64,000 nucleotides of DNA, taken from positions 8,610 to 72,609 of the forward strand of contig JBAYGS010000004.1 in assembly GCA_041666545.1 (NCBI GenBank), written 5' to 3'. This DNA is from Minisyncoccota bacterium (lineage in GTDB: Bacteria > Patescibacteriota > Minisyncoccia > Phycocordibacterales > JBAYGS01). The translations under genes were made by a program, and so were the position numbers. Under the pieces are notes generated by a model. That model worked only from the letters and a program-made list of their open reading frames with translations, ran no database searches and was not told where the DNA came from. This document shows positions 28,075 to 64,000 of the stretch, one piece after another; within the stretch, counting starts at the first letter, position 1; the number at the start of each line of letters is the position of its first letter.

Positions 28075-29223
28075 ATGGAGAAAGAGAAAAAAAGAATTTT
28101 AATATTTTCTGTCGCTTATTTGCCTTTTGTTGGCGGGGCGGAAGTAGCGGTTAAAGAACTTACGGATCGGCTGACCGATTGTTATTTCGATTTGGTCACG
28201 GTCAATTTGGATGGTCGACAAAAAAAGTTGGAAACAATCGGCCGGGTAAATGTTCATCGAGTTGGAATCAGTAAAATCTGCAAATACACTTTTCCAATTA
28301 GCGGCTTTTTAAAAGCTTGGTCTTTGCAAAAAAAGAATTCTTACGATGCGACCTGGGCGATTATGGCTAACTACGCCGGCTTGGCGGGACTATTTTTTAA
28401 ATATAAATTCCCTAAGATTCCTCTCGTCCTGACTTTGCAGGAAGGCGACCCTTTGCCACACGTCAAAAAGCGAATGCTCTTGCTTTACCCGCTTTTTAAA
28501 TCACTTTTCAGAAAAGCTGATAAAATTACCGCGATTTCAAACTATTTAGCGAACTGGGCAAGAGAGATGGGGGCGACTTCACCTGTCGCCGTTGTGTCCA
28601 ACGGTGTCGAGGTGAAGAAGTTTCAAGTTTCAAGTTTCAAGTTTCAAGTTGCAGAAAAAAGACATGAGCTCGGATTTAAAGAGGAAGATGTGGTCTTGGT
28701 GACGACTTCCAGACTAGTTAAAAAAAATGCAGTTGGGGATATTATTGAATCGCTCAGATTTTTGCCCGAGAATGTGAAGTTGCTTGTTGTGGGTTCCGGT
28801 CCTCTTTTTAAATCTCTTCAACTACTCACTACTCACTACTCACTACAAACTCGCATTAAATTCGTCGGTCATGTAGTGCCAGACAAAATTCGCGAATATT
28901 TGTGGGCATCAGACATTTTCATCCGCCCCTCTCTTTCCGAAGGCTTCGGCAATTCATTTATTGAAGCCATGGCCGCTGGCCTGCCAGTGATCGCTACGCC
29001 AGTTGGTGGTATTGTCGATTTTCTTAAAGATGGAGAGACCGGCTTATTTTGCAAAGTTAATGATTCGAAGAGTATTTCTGAAGCAGTATTGAGACTCGTT
29101 AACGATCCGGCATTAAAGAATAAAATCATTGAGAATGCTTCAAAAATGGTCACAGATAAATACGATTGGCATATTGTTGCCACAGAAATGCGATCAGAAG
29201 TGTTTAATCGTTTAATTAAATAA
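28075..29223 (+). CDS. Glycosyltransferase family 4
   Basis: 382 aa. GGAEVAVKELTDRL N-terminus. C-terminal EGFGNSFIEAMAAGLPVIATPVGG motif. Contains the heptamer-repeat insert. Confidence 0.8.
   Translation: MEKEKKRILIFSVAYLPFVGGAEVAVKELTDRLTDCYFDLVTVNLDGRQKKLETIGRVNVHRVGISKICKYTFPISGFLKAWSLQKKNSYDATWAIMANYAGLAGLFFKYKFPKIPLVLTLQEGDPLPHVKKRMLLLYPLFKSLFRKADKITAISNYLANWAREMGATSPVAVVSNGVEVKKFQVSSFKFQVAEKRHELGFKEEDVVLVTTSRLVKKNAVGDIIESLRFLPENVKLLVVGSGPLFKSLQLLTTHYSLQTRIKFVGHVVPDKIREYLWASDIFIRPSLSEGFGNSFIEAMAAGLPVIATPVGGIVDFLKDGETGLFCKVNDSKSISEAVLRLVNDPALKNKIIENASKMVTDKYDWHIVATEMRSEVFNRLIK
28814..28852 (+). repeat. (CACTACT)n heptamer tandem repeat segment, in-frame inside the GT4 gene
   Basis: ctcttcaactactcactactcactactcactacaaact encodes SLQLLTTHYSLQTR. 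36/38 identical to 17270-17305 in murD. Confidence 0.7.
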
Positions 29224-29305
29224 TCAAGGGTTTGACTTCCGATCATTTAAGAGTAGGATCTTGGATAGAAATGAGTCTTTTACATTCAAATGAGAAAGGC
29301 AACCA

Positions 29306-30187
29306 ATGAGAGATCTATCGACACGCGATTATCGGTTCGGATTTATAGAGCCGATCGGAGGAGTTTTGGGCGAAATACCGTTCATCCTTGTCCACAGAAG
29401 TGAGGAGATGCCGCCAATCGACAAGGTTTTTGTGCTGTACGTCAACTGTTACAGTCGGCATAGTTTGGTACAAAGCGATCTGGTGCTTGTCTGGCTTATG
29501 GAGGAAACTGGGATAGTGATCAAGTCGTACTGTAGGGCGGATGATCCCAGACTGAGAGCTCAATACAAAAACTGTTCTGAGTTTGCCGAAAAGGTCATGG
29601 CCATGTTGCTTTTGTCTGAAGAACGCGGACGGCCGTCTGAAATTTATCGTCGTACGGAAATCGGAGCTAAGCTGAAAAAAGACGAACTGCCTGGATATCT
29701 GAGGCCTATCATTGTCCGGGTGGAGGGATGGAAAGTCTTCTTTGGGCGTCCGGAGGTACGGCAGATTCGAGGTGGTTATTACGCCCGCATTTCGGAAGAT
29801 GGCTATTATGTTGCTCCAATCGGTCGAGCTTGGCTTAGGCTGGGTGAAAGGGTGCTCAAAGACGGTTTGCCATTTGATGAAGAGTATACCATTCTGGATG
29901 ATGAATTAGGATTTCATTTTGATCCCAATGATCAGTCGCCTATTGTTGTGAGTGATGCGATTTACTGGCAACTGGAGGGCTCCAGGGTTTTGGTTGTCTT
30001 GCCACATGCCTCAGCAAACGAAAAAGTTGCAACATACTACGGTTACCTTAAACAATTCAATGAGTTCAACGCCGCTGTCAATGAAGCGAGGGAAAGAATA
30101 AAGGTGGCAGCGAAGGCAAATGCGGCCAGAGAAGAGGAAGTGATCAATGCCCGGGCTCTGGATCTAAGAAAAGCTTTGCTTGAGTGA
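29306..30187 (+). CDS. Hypothetical protein (293 aa), stand-alone transcription unit inserted within the glycosyltransferase cluster
   Basis: No recognisable domain. GC ~49%. Upstream TTGACT (29232) and SD-like GAAAGG. Strong terminator at 30206-30240. Confidence 0.4.
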   Translation: MRDLSTRDYRFGFIEPIGGVLGEIPFILVHRSEEMPPIDKVFVLYVNCYSRHSLVQSDLVLVWLMEETGIVIKSYCRADDPRLRAQYKNCSEFAEKVMAMLLLSEERGRPSEIYRRTEIGAKLKKDELPGYLRPIIVRVEGWKVFFGRPEVRQIRGGYYARISEDGYYVAPIGRAWLRLGERVLKDGLPFDEEYTILDDELGFHFDPNDQSPIVVSDAIYWQLEGSRVLVVLPHASANEKVATYYGYLKQFNEFNAAVNEARERIKVAAKANAAREEEVINARALDLRKALLE

Positions 30188-30205
30188 ATTGATCAATGTT
30201 CGTTC

Positions 30206-30240
30206 AGCCGGAGGTACAGAAGTGTGCCTCCGGTTTTTTA
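30206..30240 (+). terminator. Rho-independent terminator
   Basis: agccggaggtacagaagtgtgcctccgg + tttttt. Confidence 0.6.
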
Positions 30241-30278
30241 TGTTCTATATTTAGGCCTAAATGTGTTATAAATAAGCT

Positions 30279-31286
30279 GTGAAAATAGTCATTACCACCG
30301 GAATCTATCCACCAGCTATCGGAGGGCCGGCGCAATATGCCAAGAATTTGGCGGAGACTTTTCGTGCCAAAGGTCATGCAGTTAAGGTTTTGACTTACCG
30401 GCTTGAAAAATATCTGCCGACTGGGGTTAGGCACTTCTGGTTTTATTTGAGGTGTCTATTTGGTTTTGCCGGAGTGGATTTGATTATTACTCTCGATACT
30501 TTTAGCGTTGGTTGGCCATCGGTTTGTGCCGCCAAGCACTTGAATAAAAAAATTATTATCCGGACCGGCGGTGATTTTCTCTGGGAAGGTTATGTGGAAA
30601 GAACAGGGGATTTGGTTTTGCTCCGTGAGTTTTATCAAACTCGAATGGGCAAGCTATCTTTTAAGGAAAGGCAGATTTTTAGAATTACTAAAGATATTTT
30701 AGCCAAGGCCGACAAAATCGCTTTCAATACTTATTGGCAGAGAGTCATTTGGGCCGCGCCTTATGGTTTGGATTTGGACAAGACGACGGTTGTCGAAAAT
30801 TTTTATGGCCCAAAAGAGGAGTCAAATTATGAAAATTTTCCGGCCCGGAAGGTTTTGGTTGGTGGTACGAGGCAATTGAAATGGAAAAATCTGGCGGTTT
30901 TGAGGCGCGCTTTTGCTCTGGCGAAAGCGCGCCTGCCGGATTTAGAGCTTGATCTTATGACTGCCGATTATGATGCCTTCCAGGACAAAATTCGTCATTC
31001 GTACGCTGTGATTCTGGTCTCTTTGGGCGATATCGGTCCCAACTTGATTATGGACGCGATTCGTCTCAATAAGCCTTTTATCTGCACGAAAGAAACCGGT
31101 CTTTATGATAAAATTAAGGATATCGGCCTTTTTGTTAATCCGCAGAATGAAAACGAAATTGCCGAGCAGATAATTTTTCTGTCCCAAAAGGTAAATTACG
31201 AGGCGGCCATTTCTCGGCTCCAAGCTTTCGATTTTATTCATACTTGGGAGGAAATTGCTGAGGAGTTTTTAAATCTTGCCCAATGA
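30279..31286 (+). CDS. Glycosyltransferase (GT4-like, GT-B fold)
   Basis: 335 aa. GTG start. MKIVITTGIYPPAIGGPAQYAKNLAETF N-terminus is typical of GT4. Confidence 0.55.
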   Translation: MKIVITTGIYPPAIGGPAQYAKNLAETFRAKGHAVKVLTYRLEKYLPTGVRHFWFYLRCLFGFAGVDLIITLDTFSVGWPSVCAAKHLNKKIIIRTGGDFLWEGYVERTGDLVLLREFYQTRMGKLSFKERQIFRITKDILAKADKIAFNTYWQRVIWAAPYGLDLDKTTVVENFYGPKEESNYENFPARKVLVGGTRQLKWKNLAVLRRAFALAKARLPDLELDLMTADYDAFQDKIRHSYAVILVSLGDIGPNLIMDAIRLNKPFICTKETGLYDKIKDIGLFVNPQNENEIAEQIIFLSQKVNYEAAISRLQAFDFIHTWEEIAEEFLNLAQ

Positions 31287-32431
31287 CCAGAGTCTTGATG
31301 ATTTCAACCGACCGAAAAATATTTGATAACAATTCTCTGGTGCGCGAGAGGATGATTGAGTATGGCTCGATTTTTGATGAATTAAATATTGTGGTTTTGA
31401 CCAAGAGGGGTGAGGCGATTGGGCAGTTGCCGGTTCACCTCTCACCCAAAGTCAGAGTTTTCGCCACCGAATCGGCCGGTAGGCTCTCGGCCATCAAGGA
31501 TGCTTTTAAAGTTGGGATGCAAATTCTCGATTCTGCCACCGATTTAAATTTTTGGGTGATTACCACTCAAGATCCTTTTGAGACTGGTCTCGTTGGCCGC
31601 AAGCTTAAAAGAGTTTTTAAATTGCCATTACAAATTCAGGTTCATACCGACCTTTTAAATATTCACTTTGCTCACGATCCGCTGAACAATCTCCGTTTTA
31701 TTGTTGCTCGGCAAGTTTTGAAATCGGCCGACAGTCTCAGGGTGGTTTCAGAGAGAATCAAGCGGTCTTTGGTCAATGATTATCGCTTTGCCATTCCGGC
31801 CGAGAAAATTTCGGTTTTGCCGATTTTTATTGATTTGGAGAAAATCAGAAGTCTGCCGGTCTCGGTAGATTTGCACAAAAAGTATCCACAATTCGGCAAA
31901 ATTGTCTTAATCGCTTCTCGTCTGACCAAAGAAAAAAATTTGTTTTTTGCTCTCAAGGTTTTCAGAAGGCTTTTGAAAGAAACACCGGAGGCGGGTTTGG
32001 TGATTGTCGGTGATGGGCCAAAGAGATTGAAATTGGAAAAGAAGGCCAAGAGTTGGGGAATCGCCGACCGAGTTAAGTTTGAGGGTTGGCAAGATAATTT
32101 GGTCTCTTATTACAAGACTGCCGATACTTTTCTGAGCACTTCGTTTTACGAAGGCTTTGGCTTAACCATTGTCGAAGCAATTGCTCTCGGCTTGCCGGTT
32201 GTCTCTTCCAATGTTGGCATCGCTTCGCAAGCCTTAACCAGTGTGAATGGTTCGGTTTGCGAGTATCCGGACATCGATTGTTTTGTCCATCGACTCTGGC
32301 ACTTTTTGGCCGAAGGTCGGTTTGAGCCGGGGAGCGGTGATATCAATTTTTCCCAGATTATGACCACTGACAAGGCCGATTATCTTCGCAAGTACCAGCA
32401 AGCTATCGAGATTATTGCTCGCGCACGTTAA
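31283..32431 (+). CDS. Glycosyltransferase family 4
   Basis: EGFGLTIVEAIALGLPVVSSNVG motif. Start overlaps the upstream stop. Confidence 0.8.
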   Translation: MTRVLMISTDRKIFDNNSLVRERMIEYGSIFDELNIVVLTKRGEAIGQLPVHLSPKVRVFATESAGRLSAIKDAFKVGMQILDSATDLNFWVITTQDPFETGLVGRKLKRVFKLPLQIQVHTDLLNIHFAHDPLNNLRFIVARQVLKSADSLRVVSERIKRSLVNDYRFAIPAEKISVLPIFIDLEKIRSLPVSVDLHKKYPQFGKIVLIASRLTKEKNLFFALKVFRRLLKETPEAGLVIVGDGPKRLKLEKKAKSWGIADRVKFEGWQDNLVSYYKTADTFLSTSFYEGFGLTIVEAIALGLPVVSSNVGIASQALTSVNGSVCEYPDIDCFVHRLWHFLAEGRFEPGSGDINFSQIMTTDKADYLRKYQQAIEIIARAR

Positions 32432-32465
32432 TTAAAATCATCCGCGGTTTTCCCGGATTTGAAAA

Positions 32466-33497
32466 ATGAAAATTTTATTTATAACTCAAAAGGTTGATAA
32501 GAATGACGCCGTGCTCGGGTTTATCCACGGTTGGCTTTTGGCTTTGTCGAAACAGTTTGCCGAGCTCCAAGTGATTTGTCTTGAGAGGGGTGAAGTCAAT
32601 TTGCCGGCGAACGTAAAAATTTTCTCTCTGGGCAAGGAGAGTGGCCGATCACGGCTCAAGTACATCTCTAATTTTTATCGAACAGCTTTCGGCCGCCAGG
32701 CCGATTATGAGGCTGTTTTTGTCCATATGAACCCCGAGTATGTCATTCTGGGCGGCTTATTCTGGCGTTTTAAGGGTAAAAAGGTGGTTATGTGGTACAA
32801 CCACACCTACGGCGATTGGCGGGCCAAATTAGCCATGTTTTTGGCCAATATTCTTTGTCACACTTCACCCTACGCCTTTACGGCCAAGACTAAAAAATCA
32901 GTTCGGATGCCGGCAGGGATTGATACGGGAATTTTCCAGCCGACTGGTGTAGATAAAAAGAAAAACTCAATTTTATATTTGGGCCGGATCTCGCCAATTA
33001 AAGATCTCGGCACTTTGCTTGAAGCTGTGAAGATTTTGGATCAAAACAGTTTCCCTTTTGTTTTGGATGTTTACGGCGAGGCCTTGGTGGGGGATCTTGG
33101 CTATTTGAAGCAACTACAACAAAAATTTGAGAGTTTAATCCGAGCGGGCAAAATCGATTTTTTTGGTTCTGTTGCCAATTTCAAAACCCCGGAAATTTTT
33201 TCTAGTCATGAGGTTTCGGTCAACCTGACTCCCGCCGGCAATTATGATAAAACGGTATTGGAGACCATGGCTTGCGGATCTCTGCCACTGGTTTCTTCGC
33301 CGGCTTTTAAAGATGCCCTGCCAACGGAATTCTTTTTCAAAGAAAAGGATCCGGTTTCCTTGGCTGAGACACTCAAACGAGTTTTATTTTTCGATCAGGA
33401 TAAGAAAAATTCTCTCGCCGTGGATTTACGAAAATATGCTGTTGCCAATCATGGTTTGGATAAATTAGTATCTGCCATTACAAAACTCTATGAATAA
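32466..33497 (+). CDS. Glycosyltransferase (GT4-like)
   Basis: 343 aa GT-B fold. ETMACGSLPLVSSPAF C-terminal motif. Confidence 0.6.
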   Translation: MKILFITQKVDKNDAVLGFIHGWLLALSKQFAELQVICLERGEVNLPANVKIFSLGKESGRSRLKYISNFYRTAFGRQADYEAVFVHMNPEYVILGGLFWRFKGKKVVMWYNHTYGDWRAKLAMFLANILCHTSPYAFTAKTKKSVRMPAGIDTGIFQPTGVDKKKNSILYLGRISPIKDLGTLLEAVKILDQNSFPFVLDVYGEALVGDLGYLKQLQQKFESLIRAGKIDFFGSVANFKTPEIFSSHEVSVNLTPAGNYDKTVLETMACGSLPLVSSPAFKDALPTEFFFKEKDPVSLAETLKRVLFFDQDKKNSLAVDLRKYAVANHGLDKLVSAITKLYE

Positions 33498-34635
33498 AAA
33501 AATTTATTACATTGCCCACTGCCGTTTCCCGTCTGAAAGGGCTCATGCGATCCAAGTTGCGAAAATGATTGAAGCCATGAGCCTTAATGGTTTTGAAGTT
33601 GAGCTGATTGTGCCGGATCGGGAGAATGCCATTTCGCAAAGCCCGAAGAATTTCTACGGTCTCCAGACCGATATTTTGGTTAAGTATCTGAAAATTTGTG
33701 ATCTCTATCGTTTCGGCAAACTTGGTTATCGGTTAAGTGGCCTGTCATTTATTCTGGCCTACCGTCGATTTATTAAGGAAAGGCAAAAGGCCGGAGAAAA
33801 GTTCTTGCTCTACACTATCGACATGGATCAGTTCTCGCTCATCGGTGTCAGTTTTTTGCACACGCCTTTTGTGGTTGAGGTCCACGATGCCAAAAAATAC
33901 AGCTGGATTTTTAATCGAATGTTTAAAAGAGCCACCGCTATTTTGACGATTAATAATTTGATTAAAAACGAGATTGTGAAAACTTTTTCTCTGTCGTCTG
34001 AGAAGGTTTTGGTTCAACCGAACGGTATCGACCTCCAAATGTTTTCCAAACCGGCCGATAAGGCGGCTTGGCGGGGGAAGTGGAGTATTCTTCTTAATCG
34101 GCCATTCGTACTTTATGTCGGCAAATGTTATGACTGGAAGGGTTTGGAAATATTCGATCAGGCCCTGAAGGCTTTGCCGGAAATTAATTTTGGTTTCGTT
34201 GGTTGTAGTAAAGGCGAGGTTGAAAAGATGACCGGCCAGAAATATGATTTGCCGAACGTTTTATTTTTCAGTCAGCGGCCGTATACCGAGATGGTTGATT
34301 GGATGAGGAGTGCGGACATTCTGCTTGTTATCGGCACCAAGAAGAATGAGTATTCTTACTATCACACTTCGCCAATGAAATTGTTCGAGTATTTGGCGAC
34401 CGGAGTGCCGATTTTGGTTGCCGATACCCCGGCCATCAAAGATATGGTGAGCGAAAAGGAAGTCTTTTTCTATCAGGCTGATAATTCCGAAAGTTTCGTC
34501 TCGTCGATTCGAAAAATTATCAGTGATCAAAAAACTGCCGGTTTAAGATCGGCCGAGGCTTTAAATTTGGCCGGTAAATTGTCTTGGTCAAGCCGAGTTT
34601 TGCTGGTGCTTAATTTTGTGAAGAATAAGTTATGA
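33490..34635 (+). CDS. Glycosyltransferase family 4
   Basis: PMKLFEYLATGVPILVADTPAIKDMV motif. Confidence 0.7.
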   Translation: MNKKIYYIAHCRFPSERAHAIQVAKMIEAMSLNGFEVELIVPDRENAISQSPKNFYGLQTDILVKYLKICDLYRFGKLGYRLSGLSFILAYRRFIKERQKAGEKFLLYTIDMDQFSLIGVSFLHTPFVVEVHDAKKYSWIFNRMFKRATAILTINNLIKNEIVKTFSLSSEKVLVQPNGIDLQMFSKPADKAAWRGKWSILLNRPFVLYVGKCYDWKGLEIFDQALKALPEINFGFVGCSKGEVEKMTGQKYDLPNVLFFSQRPYTEMVDWMRSADILLVIGTKKNEYSYYHTSPMKLFEYLATGVPILVADTPAIKDMVSEKEVFFYQADNSESFVSSIRKIISDQKTAGLRSAEALNLAGKLSWSSRVLLVLNFVKNKL

Positions 34636-41305: not shown

Positions 41306-41310
41306 CCTTA

Positions 41311-49132: not shown

Positions 49133-49171
49133 AGGAACTTTTAGTTGAGATATAATTCTAAATTAATAATT

Positions 49172-57938: not shown

Positions 57939-59048
57939 ATGCCCTCAAAAACCGGTAAATCGTCGTCAAAAATTGTACCGAAGCCTGGCCGAAGCGGCGC
58001 TTTTGTCATTGCTGAAATTGGCAAAAATTTTATAATTTCTGAACAGGATGAGTCTCCAGAGACTTATCTTAAGCGGGCCAAAGATTTGATCCGAGAGTCT
58101 TATGAGGCCGGTGCCGATGCGGTTAAATTTCAGACCCACCATTTTGAAGATGAGCAGATACCGGAGAAGATTTTTTCGCCACATTTCAACGGTGCGGATC
58201 GTTACAATTGGGTCCTGAGGAATAGTCGGCTTACTCCGATAGAATTTTGGCGGGAAATCAAAAACTATGCCGATCATCTGGGAATTCAGTTTTTTATCAC
58301 TCCGATGTCGCGTGGGGCAGTGCGGAAGGTTGCAGACCTCAGTCTGCCTTTTTGGAAGATCGGATCCGGCGATGTGACTGATTTTTTGATGATCGACGAA
58401 TTGGCCAAGTTTAATAAGCCGATTATTATTTCGACCGGTATGGTCAGTTTGAAAGAGTTGGATAAGGTGGTAAGTTATATCAGGGCTAAGGGAGTTAGGC
58501 CTGTAATCATGTACTGTGTCAGCAAATATCCGGCGCCAAAAGAAGCTTTCAATCTTGGCACGATTGAATTTTTGAAGGAAAAATACCCAGACTTGCAGAT
58601 TGGCTTTTCGGATCATTCGGTTGATAATCATGACATCGCTCTTTCTGCGGTCGCACTAGGTGCTAGTTTAATTGAAAAGCATGTCTCGTATTCCAGAGAC
58701 CATTGGGGACCGGACCACAAGGCCTCTTTAACCTTTGCTGAGTTACGCGAACTGGTTGAAGAGATCCGTAGCGGAACGAAGAAGCTCGAGGTCGGAGATT
58801 TTTACGGTTCCAAAGGCAAAGAGTTGGCTGGCGCGACCAGCGAATTCCGTCCATTTTTTCGAAAAGCTTTTGTCGCGGCGCGTGATATCAAAAAAGGTGA
58901 AGTGATTACTTTGGATAATATTTTGGCCATGAGACCGGCGCTTTTGCTGGGAGGAATTCCGTCAGAAGATTTGACCAAAGTTGTCGGCAAGAAAGCTAAC
59001 TGCGGAATTAAAAAACTTAATCCGATTAAAGCTGAAAATTTAAATTAA
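57939..59048 (+). CDS. neuB: N-acetylneuraminate (nonulosonic acid) synthase, NeuB/PseI/LegI family
   Basis: FVIAEIGKNF, AVKFQTH, IISTGM, MYCVSKYPAP, GFSDHS. C-terminal SAF domain (ARDIKKGEVITLDNILAMRP). Confidence 0.85.
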   Translation: MPSKTGKSSSKIVPKPGRSGAFVIAEIGKNFIISEQDESPETYLKRAKDLIRESYEAGADAVKFQTHHFEDEQIPEKIFSPHFNGADRYNWVLRNSRLTPIEFWREIKNYADHLGIQFFITPMSRGAVRKVADLSLPFWKIGSGDVTDFLMIDELAKFNKPIIISTGMVSLKELDKVVSYIRAKGVRPVIMYCVSKYPAPKEAFNLGTIEFLKEKYPDLQIGFSDHSVDNHDIALSAVALGASLIEKHVSYSRDHWGPDHKASLTFAELRELVEEIRSGTKKLEVGDFYGSKGKELAGATSEFRPFFRKAFVAARDIKKGEVITLDNILAMRPALLLGGIPSEDLTKVVGKKANCGIKKLNPIKAENLN

Positions 59049-59053: not shown

Positions 59054-60226
59054 ATGAAGAAGACCATAACTCCTAAAAGAAAAGTTTGTTTCGTCATTAC
59101 GAGCTTTATTCATTATTCCAGAAGCATCCTGATTTTGGAGGAGCTCCGAACTCGTAAAGATGTGGAACTTTACATAATTGTCGGTGGCACTGCCATCTTG
59201 AGCAAATATTCTGCGAGCTCGGCTTATGTTCGGAAAATCTTGGAACAGGACGGCTATAAAAACATTTATGAGCTTCACTTTAATTTGGAGGGCGATGATG
59301 CGATTGTTAAAACAAAAACAATCGGTCTTGGGGTAATCGAATTTGCCAGCATTTACAACCATATCAAACCGGACATGGTTGTAATTAGGGGTGATCGGTT
59401 CGAGATTTTCGCCGCCGCAATCGCGGCAGCCAATATGAATATTCCAATCGCTCACATCGAAGGTGGAGATGTGTCGGGCACGATTGATGAGAGCTTGAGG
59501 CACGCGATTACCAAGCTGTCTCATATCCATTTCACCACCAACGATGAGGCCAAGGAGCGCGTTATCAGGATGGGCGAGAATAAGGATTACGTTTTCAACT
59601 TCGGCAGTCCGGAGGTTGAAGTGGTGAGTAAAATGCCCCTCAAGGCTGACCGAGTTAATTTGGAGGAGACCGGTAGCGGAGCCAAGCTTGATCCGAGCAA
59701 AGAATTTCTGATGGTGATGTATCATCCGGTCACGACCGAACTTGATAAAATCGGAGAGAATGTCAGGACTCTTCTAAATGCCGTTCATAAAACCAAGATG
59801 CCGACGATTTGGTTTTGGCCCAATTTTGACGCCGGTGCGGAACAGATCTCTCATGAACTCAGAGTCTTCAAAGAGCATGTTAAAGATCATCGAATCAGAT
59901 TTATGCGTTACCTGCCACCTAAAGACTTTATCTGGCTACTGAGACGAACCAGTTGTCTGGTTGGCAATTCTTCCGCCGGCATCAAAGAAACATCTTTTTT
60001 GGGTGTGCCGGTAATTGATGTTGGCACCAGGCAGAATGGACGCTTGAGTTCAAGTAATGTCGTGAAGGTTGGTTATAATGAAGCGAAGATTGTTGAGGCT
60101 ATAAAAAACCAGGTAAAAAATGGCCGTTACCCAGTTTCCGATATCTACAAGGGTGAAGATACCGCTAAAAAAATTGCGGAAAAAATTGCTACAGCTAAGC
60201 TATATGTTCAAAAGAAATTTGAGTAG
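59054..60226 (+). CDS. neuC: UDP-N-acetylglucosamine 2-epimerase (hydrolysing), NeuC family
   Basis: KVCFVITSFIHYSR...HIEGGDVSGTIDESLRHAITKLSHIHFTT. Confidence 0.85.
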   Translation: MKKTITPKRKVCFVITSFIHYSRSILILEELRTRKDVELYIIVGGTAILSKYSASSAYVRKILEQDGYKNIYELHFNLEGDDAIVKTKTIGLGVIEFASIYNHIKPDMVVIRGDRFEIFAAAIAAANMNIPIAHIEGGDVSGTIDESLRHAITKLSHIHFTTNDEAKERVIRMGENKDYVFNFGSPEVEVVSKMPLKADRVNLEETGSGAKLDPSKEFLMVMYHPVTTELDKIGENVRTLLNAVHKTKMPTIWFWPNFDAGAEQISHELRVFKEHVKDHRIRFMRYLPPKDFIWLLRRTSCLVGNSSAGIKETSFLGVPVIDVGTRQNGRLSSSNVVKVGYNEAKIVEAIKNQVKNGRYPVSDIYKGEDTAKKIAEKIATAKLYVQKKFE

Positions 60227-60232: not shown

Positions 60233-60964
60233 ATGAATCAAGACAGGAAAAAATACAATATTCTCGGTGTTATTCCGGCTAGGGGCCAGTCTAAAGGTTT
60301 GCCTGGGAAAAATATTAAAAAATTGGCCGGTAAGCCGATGATTGCTTATACTATCGAGGCGGCTAAGAAAAGCCAGTTGATCAGTCATCTGATTGTTTCT
60401 ACTGATGATAAAAAAATTGCCGCCATCTCTAAAAAATATGGAGTCGAGGTGCCATTTTTACGTCCGGCCGAATTGGCCAAAGATGACACGCCACAGTTGC
60501 CGGTTATGCAGCACGCTATCAACTTTATGGAGCAGCGCGAAGGACTTAAGTTTGATTACATTGTCATTTTGCAACCAACCTCACCTTTGAAAACTGTCGA
60601 GATAATTGATGGCACTCTCGATGAGCTGATTAAGTCAGGCGCCGACAGCGCAGTTTCAATTGCCGAAGTCCGATCTAATCATCCGATTAAAATTAAAAAA
60701 TTTGAAAATGGCAAAGTGATTCCTTTTTGTCTGCCGGAGCCGGAAGGTTTGAGGCGCCAAGATTTCCCCAAAGCCTACAAACGAAGCAGTGATGCTTACG
60801 CGATGAAGCGTGACACGATTATGGTTAAGAACCGCTTGTACGGCGATAATATTGCCGGTTTTGTGGTTGATTCGGAATTTGTCGTTGATATCGATTCCCA
60901 GGAAGATTTTCTGGTGGCGGAGTATAAGCTCAAAAAGTTTCAAGGAGAGCGCCTCAGGACTTAA
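60233..60964 (+). CDS. neuA: Acylneuraminate cytidylyltransferase (CMP-nonulosonic acid synthetase), NeuA family
   Basis: ILGVIPARGQSKGLPGKNIKKLAGKPMIAYTIEAA...LQPTSPL. Confidence 0.85.
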   Translation: MNQDRKKYNILGVIPARGQSKGLPGKNIKKLAGKPMIAYTIEAAKKSQLISHLIVSTDDKKIAAISKKYGVEVPFLRPAELAKDDTPQLPVMQHAINFMEQREGLKFDYIVILQPTSPLKTVEIIDGTLDELIKSGADSAVSIAEVRSNHPIKIKKFENGKVIPFCLPEPEGLRRQDFPKAYKRSSDAYAMKRDTIMVKNRLYGDNIAGFVVDSEFVVDIDSQEDFLVAEYKLKKFQGERLRT

Positions 60965-60992: not shown

Positions 60993-61718
60993 ATGAAAGA
61001 TAACCTTGTTGTCGGAGGGGGCGAAGTCGGGTCGGCTATCAATAGCATCTTAAAAGGATCGGAAATTTTTGATATCGATCCGACTAAGAATTCGGTCAGC
61101 CAAAAGAGATACCTAAATTTGCACATCTGCTTTCCTTACAATAGGGATTTTGTGAAAAGCGTACAGAAGTATCAAAAACAGTTTAAACCGAGTCTGACAA
61201 TTATCCACTCAACAGTTCCACTGGGGACGTCGGATAAACTTAAAGCCGTCCACTCTCCAGTGAGGGGTATCCATCCCCATTTGGCTAAGAGTTTGAAAAT
61301 TTTTCCCAAGTTTTTCGGCGGACCCAAAGCGAGATTGGCCGCAGAAATTTTCGATCGCGTCGGAGTAAAAATTCTCTGCACCCCGAAGGCCGAGACGACT
61401 GAAGCGATGAAGCTTTGGGATACCACGATCTACGGTCTCAACATCATTTTGGAAAAAGAAATCCATAAATTTTGCGAAGACAATTCGGTTGATTTTGATG
61501 TTGTCTATACTAAGGCCAATCAAAGCTATAACGCCGGCTATCGAATCTTGGGTCGGCCGGAGTATCAAAAGTATGTTTTGTCGCATGTGCCGGGGGGAGT
61601 GGGCGGTCACTGTGTCATCGCCAATGCTGAGTTGCTAAAATCTACCTCTGCCAAGCGATTGGTCAAAGAAAATGCCGAGTTTGTCAAAGCTAAATCACGT
61701 AGATCTAAGTCCAAGTAG
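60993..61718 (+). CDS. Short NAD(P)-binding Rossmann-fold protein, possibly nucleotide-sugar dehydrogenase-like; hypothetical
   Basis: ~241 aa from ATG 60993. N-terminal VVGGGEVGSAI. PGGVGGHCVIAN resembles the GGxC catalytic-Cys motif of UDP-glucose/GDP-mannose dehydrogenases. The track ORF start at 60810 overlaps neuA and is rejected. Confidence 0.4.
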   Translation: MKDNLVVGGGEVGSAINSILKGSEIFDIDPTKNSVSQKRYLNLHICFPYNRDFVKSVQKYQKQFKPSLTIIHSTVPLGTSDKLKAVHSPVRGIHPHLAKSLKIFPKFFGGPKARLAAEIFDRVGVKILCTPKAETTEAMKLWDTTIYGLNIILEKEIHKFCEDNSVDFDVVYTKANQSYNAGYRILGRPEYQKYVLSHVPGGVGGHCVIANAELLKSTSAKRLVKENAEFVKAKSRRSKSK

Positions 61719-61757
61719 GCTTACCTGCAGCCGGTTGGTTTAGAGTTAAAATTTATT

Positions 61758-62723
61758 ATGTCTCTTTCGACAGACGAAAATCATATCATCGTCAATTATC
61801 ATTATGTGGAGGATCCGCGAGATGATCTTTCCGGTGTTCATCCCTGCACGCCAAAAGAATTTGAGAGGCAAGTAAAATTCTTGTCCGAAAATTACAAAAT
61901 AGTCTCGGTAGGGGAGGTGCTGGAAGCTACGCGTTTGGATGTCAGTCGTGGTGCCAAGCCGACGGTTGCCGGTAATCCGAGTCGGTTCTGTGCCATAACT
62001 TTTGATGACGGTCTGCAAAACCAATTTCAATATGCGGCACCGATTTTGGAAAAGTACGGGGCGACAGCGACTTTTTTTGTTATCACCAGTACCTTTTCCG
62101 GGACGGTTCCTTCAGCCCATAAAATTCACGTGGTGCTTTCGGCTGCTTCAACCGAGAAACTGATTGATATGTTCAACGAGTTTTTGATCAGGACCTATCC
62201 TGATCTAGAGGCACAGCATTTTATTCCTAAAGATCGACGCATCACAATGCGGCGTAAATATGACAGCTTGCTTGATGCCAACTTCAAAGAGACTTTGATT
62301 GTTGTTCCGTCGGAAGTTCGTGACGCTTTTTTAATTGAGGCTTTTGACAAATTTGGGCTTGATGAGTCGACCGTTAATCAGATGCTTTTTATGAAAGAGG
62401 CGGAAATCAGCGATCTGGCCAGTCGGGGTTTTTTTATTGAAAATCATACCCATGAGCACGGTTCTCTGGAGCAGGTTTCAGTCGAAGCCCTAACGGCCGA
62501 TCTCGAAACTGCCAACTCGATCTTACATAAATTGTTGGGTCGACGGCCGACGGTGATTTCTTATCCGCATGGCCGTTTTGACGAACGGATTCGCGATGTG
62601 ATTGTTAAGGCCGGTTTAAAATACGGTGTGACAATCGAGCCACGTTCAGTTTCATCAAAAGACGATTCTTTTTTGATACCCCGTTACGATACTAACGATT
62701 TAAAGAAATATATAAACCAATGA
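61758..62723 (+). CDS. Polysaccharide deacetylase family protein (NodB homology domain)
   Basis: ITFDDGLQNQFQYAAPILEKYGATATFFV. ENHTHEHG. YPHGRFD. Confidence 0.8.
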   Translation: MSLSTDENHIIVNYHYVEDPRDDLSGVHPCTPKEFERQVKFLSENYKIVSVGEVLEATRLDVSRGAKPTVAGNPSRFCAITFDDGLQNQFQYAAPILEKYGATATFFVITSTFSGTVPSAHKIHVVLSAASTEKLIDMFNEFLIRTYPDLEAQHFIPKDRRITMRRKYDSLLDANFKETLIVVPSEVRDAFLIEAFDKFGLDESTVNQMLFMKEAEISDLASRGFFIENHTHEHGSLEQVSVEALTADLETANSILHKLLGRRPTVISYPHGRFDERIRDVIVKAGLKYGVTIEPRSVSSKDDSFLIPRYDTNDLKKYINQ

Positions 62724-63049
62724 ATATCGGCGTTGATTTGGTCGCAATCAAAAAATTCCATAAAATCAAGGCTCACGACTATAAACACTGGTCAAGAGTT
62801 TTTTCGATGTTAGAGTGGGAGTATGCTTTCAAGGATGGCTTATCTGCTTCGCACTTGGCCGGCATCTTCGCCGCCAAGGAAGCGGCGATGAAAGCTACCG
62901 GTTTGGTAGGAGTGGAGAATTATCGTAAGTTTGAGGTTCGCCATGATAAACTGGGGGCTCCGAAACTTAATTTAAAAGGTTCTAAACTGAGCCTTTCTCA
63001 TGATCAGGGGTTGGCGATTGCGTTTGTTCTAGCCTCGACTAAAAAATAG
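62720..63049 (+). CDS. 4'-phosphopantetheinyl transferase (holo-ACP synthase, AcpS-like)
   Basis: 109 aa. IGVDLVAIKKF...LAGIFAAKEAAMKATG...SLSHDQGLAIAFV. Confidence 0.55.
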   Translation: MNIGVDLVAIKKFHKIKAHDYKHWSRVFSMLEWEYAFKDGLSASHLAGIFAAKEAAMKATGLVGVENYRKFEVRHDKLGAPKLNLKGSKLSLSHDQGLAIAFVLASTKK

Positions 63050-63053
63050 GCTT

Positions 63054-64000
63054 ATGTCTTTTCGTGATTTACAAATGAAGATCGGAGAATTAATTTCCAG
63101 TCGGACTGCTACGGTGGCTGACTATTTAAAGATTTCAAAGGAGATAGTGCCCGCCGGTGAATTTCCGTTTTATTTTCGCCAGATCAAAGCCGCTTTTTTG
63201 AGCAGTTACACGATTCAAGGATTACCGGAGGTGTTTCAGGTTCGAGGTGTTTTTCATAATTTAAAGATCAGCACTTACACTGCTCCTTACGCGCAGATTA
63301 GTCAGGAAATTTTAAATCAAGCAAGCGAACTTTATAAGTTTAATCCGGACATTGTTTACATTTTGGCGGAGCAGAAAGATTTTCTCGGTGATGGCCATTT
63401 GGCTCAGCTGGTCGAAACCTTAAAGGAGAAGACTGAGGCAGAAGTAATTCTGGTTTTGGCGGGCGGGGAAAACCGGGGCAGGGAGAGGCTGCACATTTTT
63501 GACTTCGAATCTTTTTTGGACAAAATTGGTCGTGCGGGAAATTGGTATACCAAATTCAAAGACTTGGGTGATCTGCGGTTGGCGCCACAAGCGTTTCCGG
63601 TTCTTGCTGAGTCCCTCTTGGCTTACGCGGTGGCATCGGCCGGCAACAACAAGAAATGCCTGGTAGTTGATTTAGACAATACCCTCTGGACCGGCGTGGC
63701 TGGTGAGGATGGGCCGCGAAAAGTCGTGCCAAACCAAAAGCTCCAGGAACATCTGCTCGGACTCTATAAGCGGGGTGTAGTCCTGGCGATTAACAGCAAA
63801 AATAATCCGGAAGATGCTTTTGAGGTAATTGATAATCATCCAGAGATGATTTTGCGTCGGGATCATTTTGCCGCTTGGCGGATTAACTGGAATAATAAAG
63901 ATTCAAATTTAATTGAGCTTAGCGAGGAGATGTCTCTGGGAACCGCTAGTTTTGCTTTTATTGATGATGATCCACTTAATCTCGGACTAGTGAGATCGAA
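63054..64000 (+). CDS. FkbH-like HAD-superfamily (IIIC) phosphatase domain protein; 3' end beyond window
   Basis: CLVVDLDNTLWTGVAGEDG and VLAINSKNNPEDA are HAD-IIIC/FkbH signatures. Open at the window end. Confidence 0.55.
   Translation, partial: MSFRDLQMKIGELISSRTATVADYLKISKEIVPAGEFPFYFRQIKAAFLSSYTIQGLPEVFQVRGVFHNLKISTYTAPYAQISQEILNQASELYKFNPDIVYILAEQKDFLGDGHLAQLVETLKEKTEAEVILVLAGGENRGRERLHIFDFESFLDKIGRAGNWYTKFKDLGDLRLAPQAFPVLAESLLAYAVASAGNNKKCLVVDLDNTLWTGVAGEDGPRKVVPNQKLQEHLLGLYKRGVVLAINSKNNPEDAFEVIDNHPEMILRRDHFAAWRINWNNKDSNLIELSEEMSLGTASFAFIDDDPLNLGLVRS

What the first reader, a model, noticed from the sequence alone, without database searches (positions are those of the whole stretch)
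28075..64000. ~36-kb surface-glycan super-cluster: 9+ GT4s, 4 TagF-like polymerases, 5 methyltransferases, GT-C/GtrB pair, Wzx, AsnB-like and a sialic-acid pathway
From 28.0 kb to the window end almost every gene is glycan-related. The genes are tightly packed, with many overlapping start/stop codons indicating long operons. For an organism with a presumably ~1 Mb genome this is a very large investment in one cell-surface polymer or glycoconjugate. The combination is unusual. It joins teichoic-acid-type glycerophosphotransferases (four paralogs) and many GT4s with five SAM methyltransferases (a heavily O-methylated product?). It adds a polyprenyl-phosphate sugar synthase plus a GT-C transferase, a three-component extracytoplasmic glycosylation system. 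It also has a flippase, an AsnB-like amidotransferase, and CMP-nonulosonic acid synthesis. Together with the WbaP-like initiating transferase and GT4 at the window start, it suggests an elaborate, possibly sialylated and methylated envelope glycopolymer or S-layer/protein glycan. This is plausibly central to host interaction.
Basis: partly seen in the sequence, partly recalled or inferred. Interest (0 to 1): 0.75.

Follow-up and report, generated by a model that had tools for sequence, protein, structure and literature searches.

The report
Giant sialic-acid surface-glycan gene cluster
A tiny-genome Patescibacteria (Paceibacterota) bacterium devotes at least 46 kb to one conserved cell-surface sugar-coat locus, and its four "teichoic-acid polymerase-like" genes are more likely a new kind of sialic-acid-type (nonulosonic acid) transferase than true glycerol-phosphate polymerases.

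Summary
From 28075 to the window end, 32 intact genes fill 97% of the DNA. They include nine GT4 glycosyltransferases (one marginal), five SAM methyltransferases, four TagF-like paralogs, a GT2/flippase-like/GT-C trio, Wzx, AsnB and NeuB/NeuC/NeuA.

There is a second GT-C-fold membrane protein on the minus strand. There is also an MprF-type flippase-like protein, a deacetylase, a PPTase and a truncated FkbH gene. On longer copies of the contig the locus runs about 10 kb further: ACP, dehydratase, reductase, GNAT, a second NeuB(-cupin)/cytidylyltransferase pair and a Wzy_C-TPR protein.

The host is a Candidatus Paceibacterota MAG, and the core synteny recurs in other Patescibacteria.

The main correction concerns the TagF-like proteins. 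They are true but remote TarL/TagF homologues. They lack both catalytic histidines, and no CDP-glycerol synthesis gene is nearby. In 43 of 47 related loci they lie within 10 kb of nonulosonic-acid genes. Their N-domains weakly match the Tannerella pseudaminic/legionaminic-acid transferase family.

Best reading: a Wzx/Wzy_C-type, methylated, nonulosonic-acid-bearing envelope glycan or protein glycan. It is a new variant of a known kind, of moderate interest.

The parts
28075..29223 (+). GT4 glycosyltransferase (first gene of the locus)
   Evidence: Glycos_transf_1 at 134 bits and Glyco_transf_4 at 54 bits. An EX7E motif is present.
29306..30187 (+). Hypothetical 293-aa protein with no family match
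   Evidence: No Pfam or NCBIfam hit.
30279..31286 (+). Marginal GT4-like protein
   Evidence: Glyco_transf_4 at 28.7 bits against a cut-off of 28.5. The C-domain hit is below its cut-off.
31283..36799 (+). Five consecutive GT4 glycosyltransferases (31283-32431, 32466-33497, 33490-34635, 34632-35705, 35702-36799)
   Evidence: Glycos_transf_1 at 38-137 bits. The paralogs are at most 35% identical, so they are not recent duplicates. Several junctions overlap by 4-8 nt.
36783..37334 (+). Small SAM methyltransferase (183 aa)
   Evidence: Methyltransf_11 at 29 bits. Motif I, LNLGCG, is present. Orthologues of 181-191 aa occur in L006 and L007.
37331..38521 (+). GT4 glycosyltransferase
   Evidence: Glycos_transf_1 at 111 bits.
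38541..42717 (+). Three tandem TagF-like GT-B paralogs (38541-39893, 39890-41305, 41311-42717). Candidate nonulosonic-acid (or other CMP/CDP-donor) transferases.
   Evidence: PF04464 at 26-48 bits, C-domain only. NF046086 BFO_1060 family on the N-domain, E 1.6e-10 to 5.9e-9. 24-29% identical to each other and to 56503. No TM segments.
42864..43499 (+). SAM methyltransferase
   Evidence: Methyltransf_11 at 49 bits.
43511..45100 (+). GT-C membrane glycosyltransferase (PMT_2-like)
   Evidence: PMT_2 at 27.7 bits against a cut-off of 26.1. Multi-TM. An orthologue sits in the L006 synteny block.
45097..46038 (+). GT2 polyprenyl-phosphate sugar synthase (ArnC/GtrB/PgfS-like)
   Evidence: Glycos_transf_2 at 119 bits. 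ArnC model 190 bits and PgfS model 159 bits, both below their equivalog cut-offs. C-terminal TM helices at 231-296.
46040..47245 (+). GT4 glycosyltransferase
   Evidence: Glycos_transf_1 at 40 bits and Glyco_trans_4_4 at 30.7 bits.
47226..48140 (+). SAM methyltransferase
   Evidence: Methyltransf_23 at 88 bits.
48137..49132 (+). MprF-type flippase-like membrane protein (LPG_synthase_TM). Candidate flippase for the polyprenyl-P-sugar.
   Evidence: PF03706 at 114 bits. TIGR00374 flippase-like domain at 60.8 bits against a cut-off of 43.2.
49145..51052 (+). AsnB-type glutamine amidotransferase. Candidate glycan carboxyl amidation enzyme.
   Evidence: Asn_synthase at 314 bits plus GATase_7. Best NCBIfam model is the XrtA/PEP-CTERM EPS amidotransferase, 550 bits, below its cut-off. 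It keeps its place in the glycan locus in L006 and L007.
51049..53043 (-). 664-aa polytopic membrane protein with a GT-C fold and a C-terminal soluble domain. It belongs to no Pfam family and is the only minus-strand gene.
   Evidence: No Pfam or NCBIfam hit. About 10-12 TM segments. AF2 model at pLDDT 85.6. The top 13 Foldseek PDB hits are all GT-C enzymes: DPY19 at E 8e-7, then ArnT, STT3, PglB, EmbB, PimE, ALG12, ALG3. Homologues keep the same opposite-strand position in L006 and L007.
53265..54008 (+). SAM methyltransferase
   Evidence: Methyltransf_11 at 81 bits.
54144..55535 (+). Wzx-type flippase
   Evidence: Polysacc_synt at 35.4 bits against a cut-off of 28.2. Multi-TM.
55622..56407 (+). 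SAM methyltransferase
   Evidence: Methyltransf_31 at 76 bits. Its position after Wzx is conserved in L003 and L006.
56503..57912 (+). Fourth TagF-like GT-B paralog, directly upstream of neuB. The best candidate for a nonulosonic-acid transferase.
57939..59048 (+). NeuB-family nonulosonic acid synthase
   Evidence: PF03102 at 207 bits plus SAF. Best PDB sequence match is N. meningitidis NeuB at 175 bits, ahead of SpsE at 133 and PseI at 115. It is below the NCBIfam equivalog cut-offs.
59054..60226 (+). NeuC-type hydrolysing UDP-GlcNAc 2-epimerase
   Evidence: TIGR03568 at 347 bits against a cut-off of 235.9. Best PDB match is the human GNE epimerase domain at 206 bits, ahead of LegG at 180.
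60233..60964 (+). NeuA-type CMP-nonulosonic acid synthetase
   Evidence: CTP_transf_3 at 93.5 bits. PseF model at 175 bits, below its cut-off of 205.7.
60993..61718 (+). 241-aa Rossmann protein, weakly similar to NDP-sugar dehydrogenases. Function unclear.
   Evidence: UDPG_MGDP_dh central domain at 22.8 bits, below its cut-off. The gene call comes from L001.
61758..62723 (+). Polysaccharide (N-)deacetylase
   Evidence: Polysacc_deac_1 at 85.9 bits.
62720..63049 (+). 4'-phosphopantetheinyl transferase (AcpS-type)
   Evidence: TIGR00556 at 65 bits against a cut-off of 45. PF01648 in L001.
63054..64000 (+). FkbH-like HAD-IIIC protein, cut by the window end (541 aa on the full contig). It is the first gene of an ACP-dependent acyl-modification module.
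   Evidence: The partial protein scores 115.6 bits on TIGR01686. The full-length protein in L001 scores 284 bits against a cut-off of 146.65. Downstream genes are listed in L001.

Best explanation
This is a conserved Patescibacteria locus for a complex envelope glycoconjugate that carries nonulosonic acid. It spans at least 46 kb and about 42 genes, from 28075 through the window end and about 10 kb beyond.

Proposed mechanism. Steps marked [shown] rest on family assignments made here. Steps marked [inferred] do not.
1. A polyprenyl-phosphate-linked oligosaccharide is primed by a phosphoglycosyltransferase encoded outside the locus [inferred]. The WbaP-like gene at 407-1756 is a candidate.
2. 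Nine divergent GT4 enzymes extend it on the cytoplasmic face [families shown, order inferred].
3. NeuC, NeuB and NeuA make a CMP-activated Neu5Ac-type sugar [families shown, sugar identity inferred]. A second NeuB-cupin/cytidylyltransferase pair just past the window makes another CMP-ulosonic acid [inferred].
4. The four His-less TagF-like GT-B proteins transfer, and perhaps oligomerise, these CMP-activated acids rather than glycerol-phosphate [inferred from neighbourhood, residue pattern and the Tannerella precedent].
5. Five SAM methyltransferases, an AsnB amidotransferase and a deacetylase tailor the sugars. So does a PPTase/FkbH/ACP/dehydratase/reductase/GNAT module, which would supply a glyceroyl- or lactyl-type acyl group [inferred].
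6. Wzx flips the lipid-linked glycan. The downstream Wzy_C-TPR protein then polymerises it or ligates it to its acceptor, which may be protein, lipid or wall [inferred].
7. Outside the membrane, the GT2 polyprenyl-P-sugar synthase, the MprF-type flippase-like protein and two GT-C enzymes add further residues [families and fold shown, roles inferred].
For: Family assignments.

Intact, packed genes: 97.3% coding with 13 overlapping junctions.

Continuation past the window: FkbH, ACP, MaoC, SDR, GNAT, NeuB-cupin, CTP_transf_3, EamA, GFO-like and Wzy_C-TPR.

Conserved synteny in other Patescibacteria:
- L003 has MT, TagF-like, MT, Wzx, MT, NeuB-cupin, HAD, CTP_transf_3, GFO, TagF-like, NeuB, NeuC, NeuA, Wzy_C-TPR.
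- L006 and L007 have the 664-aa protein on the opposite strand between the AsnB/GT2/GT-C/GT4/MT/LPG_TM block and, in L006, the Wzx/NulO block.

TagF-like proteins:
- Profile-profile homology to TarL-like sequences is 98.3%, covering the C-domain only.
- The TarL K-x-H-P histidine aligns to Pro308. That column reads P33, Q9, Y2, H1 across 45 sequences.
- No invariant or near-invariant His occurs in the N-domain. An invariant W180-D181 is found instead, where TarL-like proteins have Q-x-W-H (the PDB entry title names TarL H300N).
- All four paralogs hit the N-domain of NF046086 at E 1e-9 to 1e-10. The namesake of that family, BFO_1060, belongs to the Tannerella Pse/Leg-derivative transferases, whose knock-outs lose the terminal nonulosonic acid (PMC5420450).
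- Among 47 species-representative loci of at least 18 kb: NeuA-like in 41, NeuB in 39, NeuC in 35, any NulO gene in 43, TagD-like in 0.

NeuB and NeuC are closest to Neu5Ac-pathway enzymes. No DegT-type aminotransferase or 4,6-dehydratase is present in the window or L001.

The 664-aa protein has a GT-C fold.
Against: - There is no biochemical evidence. The product, the acceptor and the donor of the TagF-like enzymes are all inferred.
- The NF046086 hits are far below that family's 200-bit cut-off.
- The sialyltransferase D/E-D/E-G and HP motifs described for the Tannerella enzymes are not conserved here.
- B. subtilis SpsB, another TagB-domain protein next to a legionaminic-acid pathway, is not needed for Leg transfer (PMC7439481).
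- Two of 71 related loci do hold a TagD-like gene. CDP-glycerol synthesis could also be encoded elsewhere in this genome, which could not be inspected.
- The three tandem paralogs sit in the GT4 block, not beside the Neu genes.
- No initiating transferase is in the locus. One minus-strand gene and seven intergenic gaps of 80 bp or more (82-221 bp) mean several transcription units, so the genes may serve more than one product.
Confidence: 0.6

Rival explanations
1. The four TagF-like proteins are true CDP-glycerol or CDP-ribitol phosphotransferases. They build a teichoic-acid-type poly(alditol-phosphate) segment, which the GT4s glycosylate and which carries sialic acid as a decoration.
Against: Neither catalytic histidine of the TagF/TarL family is conserved. 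No TagD/TarI/TarJ gene, TagGH-type ABC exporter or LCP ligase is in the window or in L001. TagD-like genes occur in 0 of 47 large loci, against NulO genes in 43 of 47. The N-domain matches the Tannerella NulO-transferase family rather than PF04464.
Confidence: 0.2
2. The 36 kb is not one pathway. It holds two or three neighbouring, independent glycan systems: (i) a GT4-rich polysaccharide block; (ii) a GT2/flippase/GT-C module that decorates some other envelope component; (iii) a Neu/TagF-like/Wzx/Wzy_C module for protein (pilin or S-layer) O-glycosylation, with Wzy_C acting as a PglL-like oligosaccharyltransferase.
For: One gene is on the opposite strand, and gaps of 82-221 bp split the region into several likely transcription units. 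In the 71 related loci, the Neu/TagF-like module occurs far more often than the AsnB/GT-C/LPG_TM block within 10 kb. Wzy_C domains also occur in O-oligosaccharyltransferases, which is general knowledge. A secreted LTD+PKD protein is encoded 33 bp upstream.
Against: L006 and L007 keep both blocks adjacent, around the same opposite-strand GT-C-fold gene. TagF-like paralogs occur in both blocks. There is only one Wzx and one Wzy_C, and no second export route in the 46 kb.
Confidence: 0.2

Closest known systems
Tannerella forsythia general protein O-glycosylation locus with TagB-domain Pse/Leg-derivative transferases (Tanf_01245, TFUB4_00887, BFO_1060; PMC5420450)
   Same: Soluble GT-B proteins related to TagB/TagF are encoded beside a CMP-nonulosonic-acid pathway. 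The glycan is also methylated, and its nonulosonic acid carries unusual N-acyl groups (glyceroyl, glycolyl). The N-domains of all four window paralogs hit the NF046086 model at E about 1e-10.
   Different: Scores are far below the family cut-off (35-41 against 200 bits). The D/E-D/E-G and HP motifs are not conserved. The host is a monoderm-like Patescibacterium, not a Bacteroidota. There are four paralogs instead of one. The pathway is NeuC-type (Neu/Leg-like), not Pse.
Wall teichoic acid primases and polymerases TagB/TagF/TarF/TarL (PF04464)
   Same: GT-B fold, with TarL and TagF the nearest solved transferases. The C-domain is homologous and shares cytidine-nucleotide-side motifs. There are several paralogs in tandem, like TagB/TagF or TarF/TarL sets.
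   Different: Both catalytic histidines are absent. No CDP-alditol synthesis genes, TagGH or LCP genes are nearby. The genomic partner is a CMP-nonulosonic-acid pathway and a Wzx flippase.
Wzx/Wzy-dependent sialylated capsule and O-antigen loci (for example the group B Streptococcus cps-neu locus)
   Same: neuB/neuC/neuA are embedded in a glycosyltransferase-rich locus with a Wzx flippase and a Wzy_C-domain protein.
   Different: No GT38, GT42, GT52 or GT80 sialyltransferase is present, nor Wzz/CpsCD regulators, and there is no initiating transferase in the locus. This locus adds a Gtr-like GT2/flippase/GT-C module with two GT-C proteins, five methyltransferases, an FkbH/ACP acyl module and a second NeuB-cupin pathway.
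Gtr-type three-component extracytoplasmic glycosylation (GtrA/GtrB/GtrC; ArnC/ArnT; PgfS-type systems)
   Same: A GT2 with C-terminal TM helices resembling ArnC/PgfS, next to a GT-C transferase.
   Different: The flippase candidate is an MprF-type LPG_synthase_TM protein, not GtrA. A second GT-C-fold protein with no Pfam family is conserved on the opposite strand.
Teichulosonic acids of Actinomycetes (Kdn-containing, phosphate-free wall polymers; S. coelicolor SCO4873-SCO4882)
   Same: An anionic wall glycopolymer built from ulosonic acids in a monoderm envelope. This is a conceptual analogue for TagF-like enzymes combined with CMP-ulosonic acid pathways.
   Different: No sequence comparison with the Streptomyces genes was possible here. 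The link is an analogy only.

Membership tests
TagF/TarL CDP-alditol phosphotransferases (PF04464) | Pfam gathering score reached | tested here: met
   38541 scores 26.0, 39890 scores 43.3 and 41311 scores 48.0 bits against a cut-off of 22.1, all on the C-domain only. 56503 itself has no hit, but most of its orthologues carry PF04464.
TagF/TarL CDP-alditol phosphotransferases (PF04464) | Profile-level homology and GT-B fold closest to TarL/TagF | tested here: met
TagF/TarL CDP-alditol phosphotransferases (PF04464) | Catalytic His of the N-domain Q-x-W-H motif (TarL His300) | tested here: not met
   TarL-like sequences show the Q-x-W-H motif. The 45-sequence family alignment has no invariant or near-invariant His before residue 404, and it has an invariant W180-D181. 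This region could not be aligned reliably residue by residue.
TagF/TarL CDP-alditol phosphotransferases (PF04464) | Second conserved His (K-x-H-P motif of the C-domain) | tested here: not met
   The His aligns to position 308 of the V-R-F-P-P-N-D motif. That column reads P33, Q9, Y2, H1 across 45 sequences.
TagF/TarL CDP-alditol phosphotransferases (PF04464) | CDP-glycerol or CDP-ribitol supply (TagD/TarIJ) and TagGH/LCP partners in the locus | tested here: not met
   None is found among the window or L001 genes. tblastn with a B. subtilis TagD sequence recalled from memory hit 0 of 47 large related loci and 2 of 71 overall. The rest of the genome was not available.
Tannerella BFO_1060-type nonulosonic-acid transferases (NF046086) | NCBIfam cut-off (200 bits) | tested here: not met
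   Scores are 35.5-40.7 bits at E 1.6e-10 to 5.9e-9, covering the N-domain only.
Tannerella BFO_1060-type nonulosonic-acid transferases (NF046086) | D/E-D/E-G and HP motifs reported for these enzymes | tested here: not met
   The conserved D453-G454 is preceded by T, L, K, V, A or I. The invariant H404 is followed by Y, I, C, L or F, not by P (motifs as described in PMC5420450).
Tannerella BFO_1060-type nonulosonic-acid transferases (NF046086) | Encoded beside a CMP-nonulosonic-acid pathway | tested here: met
   56503 ends 26 bp before neuB. Any NulO gene lies within 10 kb in 43 of 47 large related loci. The same holds in L003-L006.
Classical bacterial sialyltransferases (GT38, GT42, GT52, GT80) | Sequence or closest-fold match | tested here: not met
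CMP-Neu5Ac pathway (NeuC, NeuB, NeuA) | Hydrolysing UDP-GlcNAc 2-epimerase (NeuC equivalog) | tested here: met
   TIGR03568 scores 347 bits against a cut-off of 235.9. Human GNE at 206 bits outranks LegG at 180.
CMP-Neu5Ac pathway (NeuC, NeuB, NeuA) | NeuB and NeuA specific for Neu5Ac rather than Leg, Pse or another sugar | tested here: inconclusive
   NeuB scores 243 bits against a cut-off of 399.65, and 212 bits on the PseI model. Its closest solved relative is N. meningitidis NeuB. NeuA scores 175 bits on the PseF model, below the cut-off of 205.7. The absence of dehydratase, aminotransferase and acetyltransferase genes for Leg or Pse precursors in the window and L001 favours Neu5Ac.
Wzx/Wzy-dependent glycan assembly | Wzx flippase, Wzy/Wzy_C protein and initiating phosphoglycosyltransferase | tested here: inconclusive
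   Wzx is present. A Wzy_C-TPR protein lies about 8 kb past the window end. No PGT is in the locus; the nearest is the WbaP-like gene at 407-1756. No Wzz-type regulator was seen.
Gtr-like three-component extracytoplasmic glycosylation | Polyprenyl-P-sugar GT2, flippase and GT-C transferase encoded together | tested here: met
   GT2 45097, LPG_synthase_TM 48137 and PMT_2 GT-C 43511 lie within 5.6 kb. The flippase type differs from GtrA. The block is conserved in L006.
GT-C glycosyltransferases (for 51049-53043) | GT-C membrane fold with conserved acidic residues in the first external loop | tested here: inconclusive
   The top 13 Foldseek hits are all GT-C, but TM-scores are only 0.24-0.42. D48, D69 and E74 are near-invariant. 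No Pfam family matches. No activity data exist.
FkbH-type glyceryl-ACP loading module | FkbH domain plus carrier protein plus PPTase | tested here: met
   Full-length FkbH scores 284 bits against a cut-off of 146.65. The ACP hit is weak. The PPTase scores 65 bits against a cut-off of 45. The acyl group and its acceptor are not determined.

The most novel reading that the evidence does not exclude
The His-less, Patescibacteria-restricted TagF-like proteins form a new family of CMP-nonulosonic-acid transferases or polymerases. In most related loci they occur as two to three paralogs within about 20 kb (four across this locus). Together with two CMP-ulosonic-acid pathways, they would build a phosphate-free, teichulosonic-acid-like anionic polymer, or a NulO-rich cap on a surface-protein glycan. 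That polymer would replace teichoic acids in these ultra-small monoderm bacteria. An uncharacterised GT-C family and an FkbH/ACP module would add further decoration outside and inside the cell.
Probability: 0.35. Interest if true: 0.75.

Novelty: new variant of a known kind. Interest (0 to 1): 0.55.

Why it matters
Patescibacteria (CPR) are mostly uncultured episymbionts. Their envelope chemistry is essentially unknown, yet it must mediate attachment to hosts. This locus takes up several percent of a genome presumed to be about 1 Mb, and its core is conserved across many Parcubacteria lineages.

If the TagF-like proteins are nonulosonic-acid transferases, three things follow. They would define a new enzyme family for sialic-acid-like sugars, for which few bacterial transferases are known. 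Hundreds of "CDP-glycerol glycerophosphotransferase" annotations in CPR genomes would need re-labelling. And these bacteria would be predicted to display sialic-acid-type, methylated, acylated glycans. That prediction can be tested directly with DMB-HPLC/MS or lectins on enrichment cultures.

No paper in the searchable library combines nonulosonic acids with Patescibacteria. Sialic-acid genes in CPR have only been mentioned in passing.

Tried and rejected
- Sequence search of the TagF-like profile and of 39890 alone against PDB. Only a weak C-domain hit to TarL appeared (E 2.6e-4), plus noise. No residue-level mapping of the N-domain was possible.
- Forced global or low-mact hhalign to extend the TarL alignment over the Q-x-W-H motif. 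The result had near-zero confidence and placed a TarL strand on a predicted helix, so it was discarded.
- The first search for related loci attempt, with the 45-sequence alignment, failed because no stretch was conserved enough. It was repeated with 17 closer sequences.
- Searching the protein database with a TarL fragment returned only fragments of at most 284 aa. These were enough to show the WH, HP, DYSS and DG..R motifs, but gave no full-length TagF set.
- Promoter and terminator consensus scans were uninformative.
- I considered that the high-GC 11.7-16 kb stretch was a 23S rRNA gene. It was rejected because there is no Rfam hit at E <= 0.001.
- I considered that 36783 was a truncated pseudogene methyltransferase. 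It was rejected because motif I is present and orthologues of 181-191 aa are conserved.
- I considered a Leg or Pse pathway. It is less likely because no dehydratase or aminotransferase genes are present and NeuC/NeuB are nearest to Neu5Ac enzymes.

Full report
**What is there.** Six-frame ORF listing and Pfam/NCBIfam scans show that 28075 to 64000 holds 32 intact genes. Together they cover 97.3% of the DNA. Thirteen junctions are start/stop overlaps.

- Eight clear GT4 enzymes plus one marginal one (30279, at the Pfam threshold).
- Five class-I SAM methyltransferases.
- Three proteins above the PF04464 (TagF-type) gathering score, and a fourth paralog (56503) that is 24-29% identical to them.
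- A PMT_2-type GT-C, and a GT2 resembling ArnC/PgfS with C-terminal TM helices.
- Wzx, a full-length AsnB, and NeuB, NeuC and NeuA.

The GT4 paralogs are at most 35% identical to each other. They are therefore distinct enzymes, not recent duplicates.

At the window start, the WbaP-like transferase (407-1756) and the N-terminus of a minus-strand GT4 are real. They lie 26 kb away, behind secDF, the 16S rRNA gene, pyruvate kinase and mur ligases. They cannot be assigned to the locus.

- 48137-49132 is an MprF-type flippase-like membrane protein (PF03706, TIGR00374). It completes the GT2 / flippase / GT-C trio.
- The only minus-strand gene, 51049-53043, encodes a 664-aa polytopic protein with no Pfam or NCBIfam match. 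Its AlphaFold model (pLDDT 85.6) finds only GT-C enzymes among the top 13 PDB matches: DPY19, ArnT, STT3, PglB, EmbB, PimE, ALG12 and ALG3. The locus therefore has a second GT-C-fold protein, from an undescribed family.
- After NeuA come a small Rossmann protein, a polysaccharide deacetylase, an AcpS-type PPTase and an FkbH gene cut by the window end.

**Source and true extent.** The exact 56503 protein is on record as a hypothetical protein of a Candidatus Paceibacterota MAG. Other assemblies carry the same sequence past the window end (L001). There the order is: full-length FkbH (284 bits against a cut-off of 146.65), an ACP, a MaoC-type dehydratase, a FabG-like reductase and a GNAT. Next come a second NeuB fused to a cupin, a second CTP_transf_3 cytidylyltransferase, an EamA transporter and a GFO/IDH/MocA-like oxidoreductase. 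Last is a 723-aa Wzy_C-TPR protein.

The locus is therefore at least 46 kb long, with about 42 genes. It contains two ulosonic-acid activation pathways, an ACP-dependent acyl module and the Wzy_C partner of Wzx.

**Conservation.** Homologues of 56503 and of the 664-aa protein are confined to Patescibacteria.
- L003 repeats this order: MT, TagF-like, MT, Wzx, MT, NeuB-cupin, HAD, CTP_transf_3, GFO, TagF-like, NeuB, NeuC, NeuA, Wzy_C-TPR. MurB and SecA follow, which suggests where the locus ends.
- In L006, on a 474-kb contig, the 664-aa homologue again sits on the opposite strand. It lies between an LPG_TM/MT/GT4/GT-C/AsnB/GT2/TagF-like block and a Wzx-like/NeuB-cupin/HAD/CTP_transf_3/GFO/TagF-like/NeuC block.
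- In L007 the same homologue sits beside an AsnB/GT2/TagF-like block, but its other side holds deoxy-sugar genes instead.

This is a conserved lineage-typical locus, not a chance pile-up.

The two histidines that mark the family are missing.
- TarL-like sequences carry Q-x-W-H and K-x-H-P motifs. The first His is TarL His300, the residue mutated in PDB 8va1.
- In the Patescibacteria family, the K-x-H-P histidine aligns to Pro308 of a conserved V-R-F-P-P-N-D motif. Only 1 of 45 sequences has His there.
- The N-domain has no conserved histidine at all. It carries an invariant W180-D181 instead. That D181 replaces His300 is my inference, because the region could not be aligned with confidence.

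The N-domains of all four window paralogs do match something else. They hit NCBIfam NF046086, the BFO_1060 family, at E 1e-9 to 1e-10, far below that family's cut-off. BFO_1060 belongs to the Tannerella forsythia TagB-domain proteins. Deleting those proteins removes the terminal pseudaminic- or legionaminic-acid derivative from the S-layer O-glycan (PMC5420450).

**Neighbourhood test.** A scan of one genome per species found 71 loci encoding orthologues, all in Patescibacteria. Among the 47 loci with at least 18 kb of sequence:

| Gene within 10 kb | Loci (of 47) |
|---|---|
| NeuA-like | 41 |
| NeuB | 39 |
| NeuC | 35 |
| NeuB-cupin | 32 |
| Any nonulosonic-acid gene | 43 |
| TagD-like cytidylyltransferase | 0 |

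The TagD query was a B. subtilis sequence recalled from memory. It hit 2 of 71 loci overall.

Most of these loci hold two or three TagF-like paralogs. The window and L001 contain no TagD/TarIJ genes, no TagGH exporter and no LCP ligase.

CDP-glycerol and CMP-nonulosonic acids share the CMP moiety. That explains how the C-domain can be conserved while the donor changes, an argument already made for the Tannerella enzymes.

There are caveats. [quoted passage not shown] The sialyltransferase D/E-D/E-G and HP motifs are not conserved here. The rest of the genome could not be checked.

I put the nonulosonic-acid transferase reading at roughly 0.55 for 56503, and somewhat lower for the three tandem copies.

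**Which sugar.**
- NeuC passes the NeuC equivalog cut-off (347 against 235.9 bits). It is closer to the human GNE epimerase domain than to LegG.
- NeuB is closest to N. meningitidis NeuB (175 bits). SpsE scores 133 and PseI scores 115. NeuB is below all equivalog cut-offs.
- No 4,6-dehydratase or DegT aminotransferase is present in the window or L001.

A Neu5Ac-type product is therefore the best guess, but it is not proven.

The second synthase, NeuB-cupin, belongs to a different subfamily. Its best match is the uncharacterised structure 3g8r at 317 bits. In relatives it is followed by a HAD phosphatase. That would suit a Kdn-type route through a phosphorylated intermediate, but this is speculation.

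The deacetylase / PPTase / FkbH / ACP / dehydratase / reductase / GNAT set would fit removal of an N-acetyl group and re-acylation with a three-carbon acyl group (glyceroyl or lactyl) derived from glycolysis. This rests on the known chemistry of FkbH loading modules and is an inference only.

**Working model.** The steps are as in the Best explanation section:
1. Priming by a PGT encoded outside the locus.
2. Cytoplasmic extension by the GT4s.
3. Addition of CMP-activated ulosonic acids by the TagF-like proteins.
4. Methylation, amidation and acylation.
5. Wzx flipping.
6. Polymerisation or ligation by Wzy_C-TPR.
7. Extracytoplasmic decoration through GT2, the flippase-like protein and two GT-C proteins.

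The families and folds are shown here. The order of steps, the donors, the acceptor and the product are inferred.

The second is supported by the minus-strand gene and by seven gaps of 82-221 bp.

**Novelty and score.** Glycan loci with neuBCA, Wzx and many glycosyltransferases are well known, so the kind is not new.

The variant features are:
- The His-less, Patescibacteria-restricted TagF-like family tied to nonulosonic-acid genes.
- An undescribed GT-C-fold family.
- The MprF-type flippase in a Gtr-like module.
- Two ulosonic-acid pathways.
- The FkbH/ACP module.
- The size of the locus relative to such a small genome.

The searchable literature holds no paper linking nonulosonic acids and Patescibacteria. 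It holds only a passing mention of sialic-acid genes in a CPR lineage.

I rate it a new variant of a known kind, with interest 0.55.

Noticed in passing
window 4663-6890 (and 5597-6032, 7458-8066): The bacterial 16S rRNA gene spans 2228 nt for a 1533-position model. It contains a group I intron (Rfam RF00028, 74 bits). Just downstream lie a group-II-intron D1-D4 hit and a LAGLIDADG endonuclease ORF (7488-8066). No 23S rRNA gene follows in the window; tRNA-Ile (9795-9869) and pyruvate kinase come next.
   Followed up: partly
window 11685-16032: A high-GC island (0.53-0.59 against about 0.44 elsewhere) holds ORFs of 478, 345, 195 and 266 aa. None has a Pfam or Rfam match. Long spurious ORFs run on the opposite strand. 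It may be horizontally acquired DNA.
   Followed up: partly
window 24515-28041: A TraG/VirD4-like coupling ATPase (698 aa) overlaps by 4 nt a 477-aa protein with lamin-tail (LTD) and PKD domains. That protein ends 33 bp before the first GT4. It might be a surface protein linked to the glycan locus, for instance as an acceptor.
   Followed up: no
window 1-1756: A WbaP-like phosphoglycosyltransferase (407-1756) is transcribed divergently from a GT4 whose N-terminus runs off the window start on the minus strand. This suggests a second glycan locus upstream of the window.
   Followed up: partly
L001 14536-19107 (equivalent to about 67.3-71.8 kb, past the window end): A second NeuB-family synthase is fused to a C-terminal cupin, next to its own CTP_transf_3 cytidylyltransferase, an EamA transporter and a GFO/IDH/MocA-like oxidoreductase. 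Relatives add a HAD phosphatase. The product is unknown. The closest solved protein is the uncharacterised 3g8r.
   Followed up: partly
window 29306-30187: A 293-aa ORF inside the GT4 block has no detectable family in Pfam or NCBIfam.
   Followed up: no
window 22774-24018: A DUF4015 putative glycoside hydrolase (279 bits) lies 4 kb upstream of the locus. It could relate to glycan turnover.
   Followed up: no
loci L008-L078: Many species-representative MAGs that carry the TagF-like orthologue are titled 'uncultured Candidatus Saccharibacteria'. The named relatives, however, are Parcubacteria lineages (Sungiibacteriota, Giovannonibacteria, Zambryskibacteria, Taylorbacteria, Nomurabacteria and others). 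The Saccharibacteria label may be a generic submitter label.
   Followed up: no
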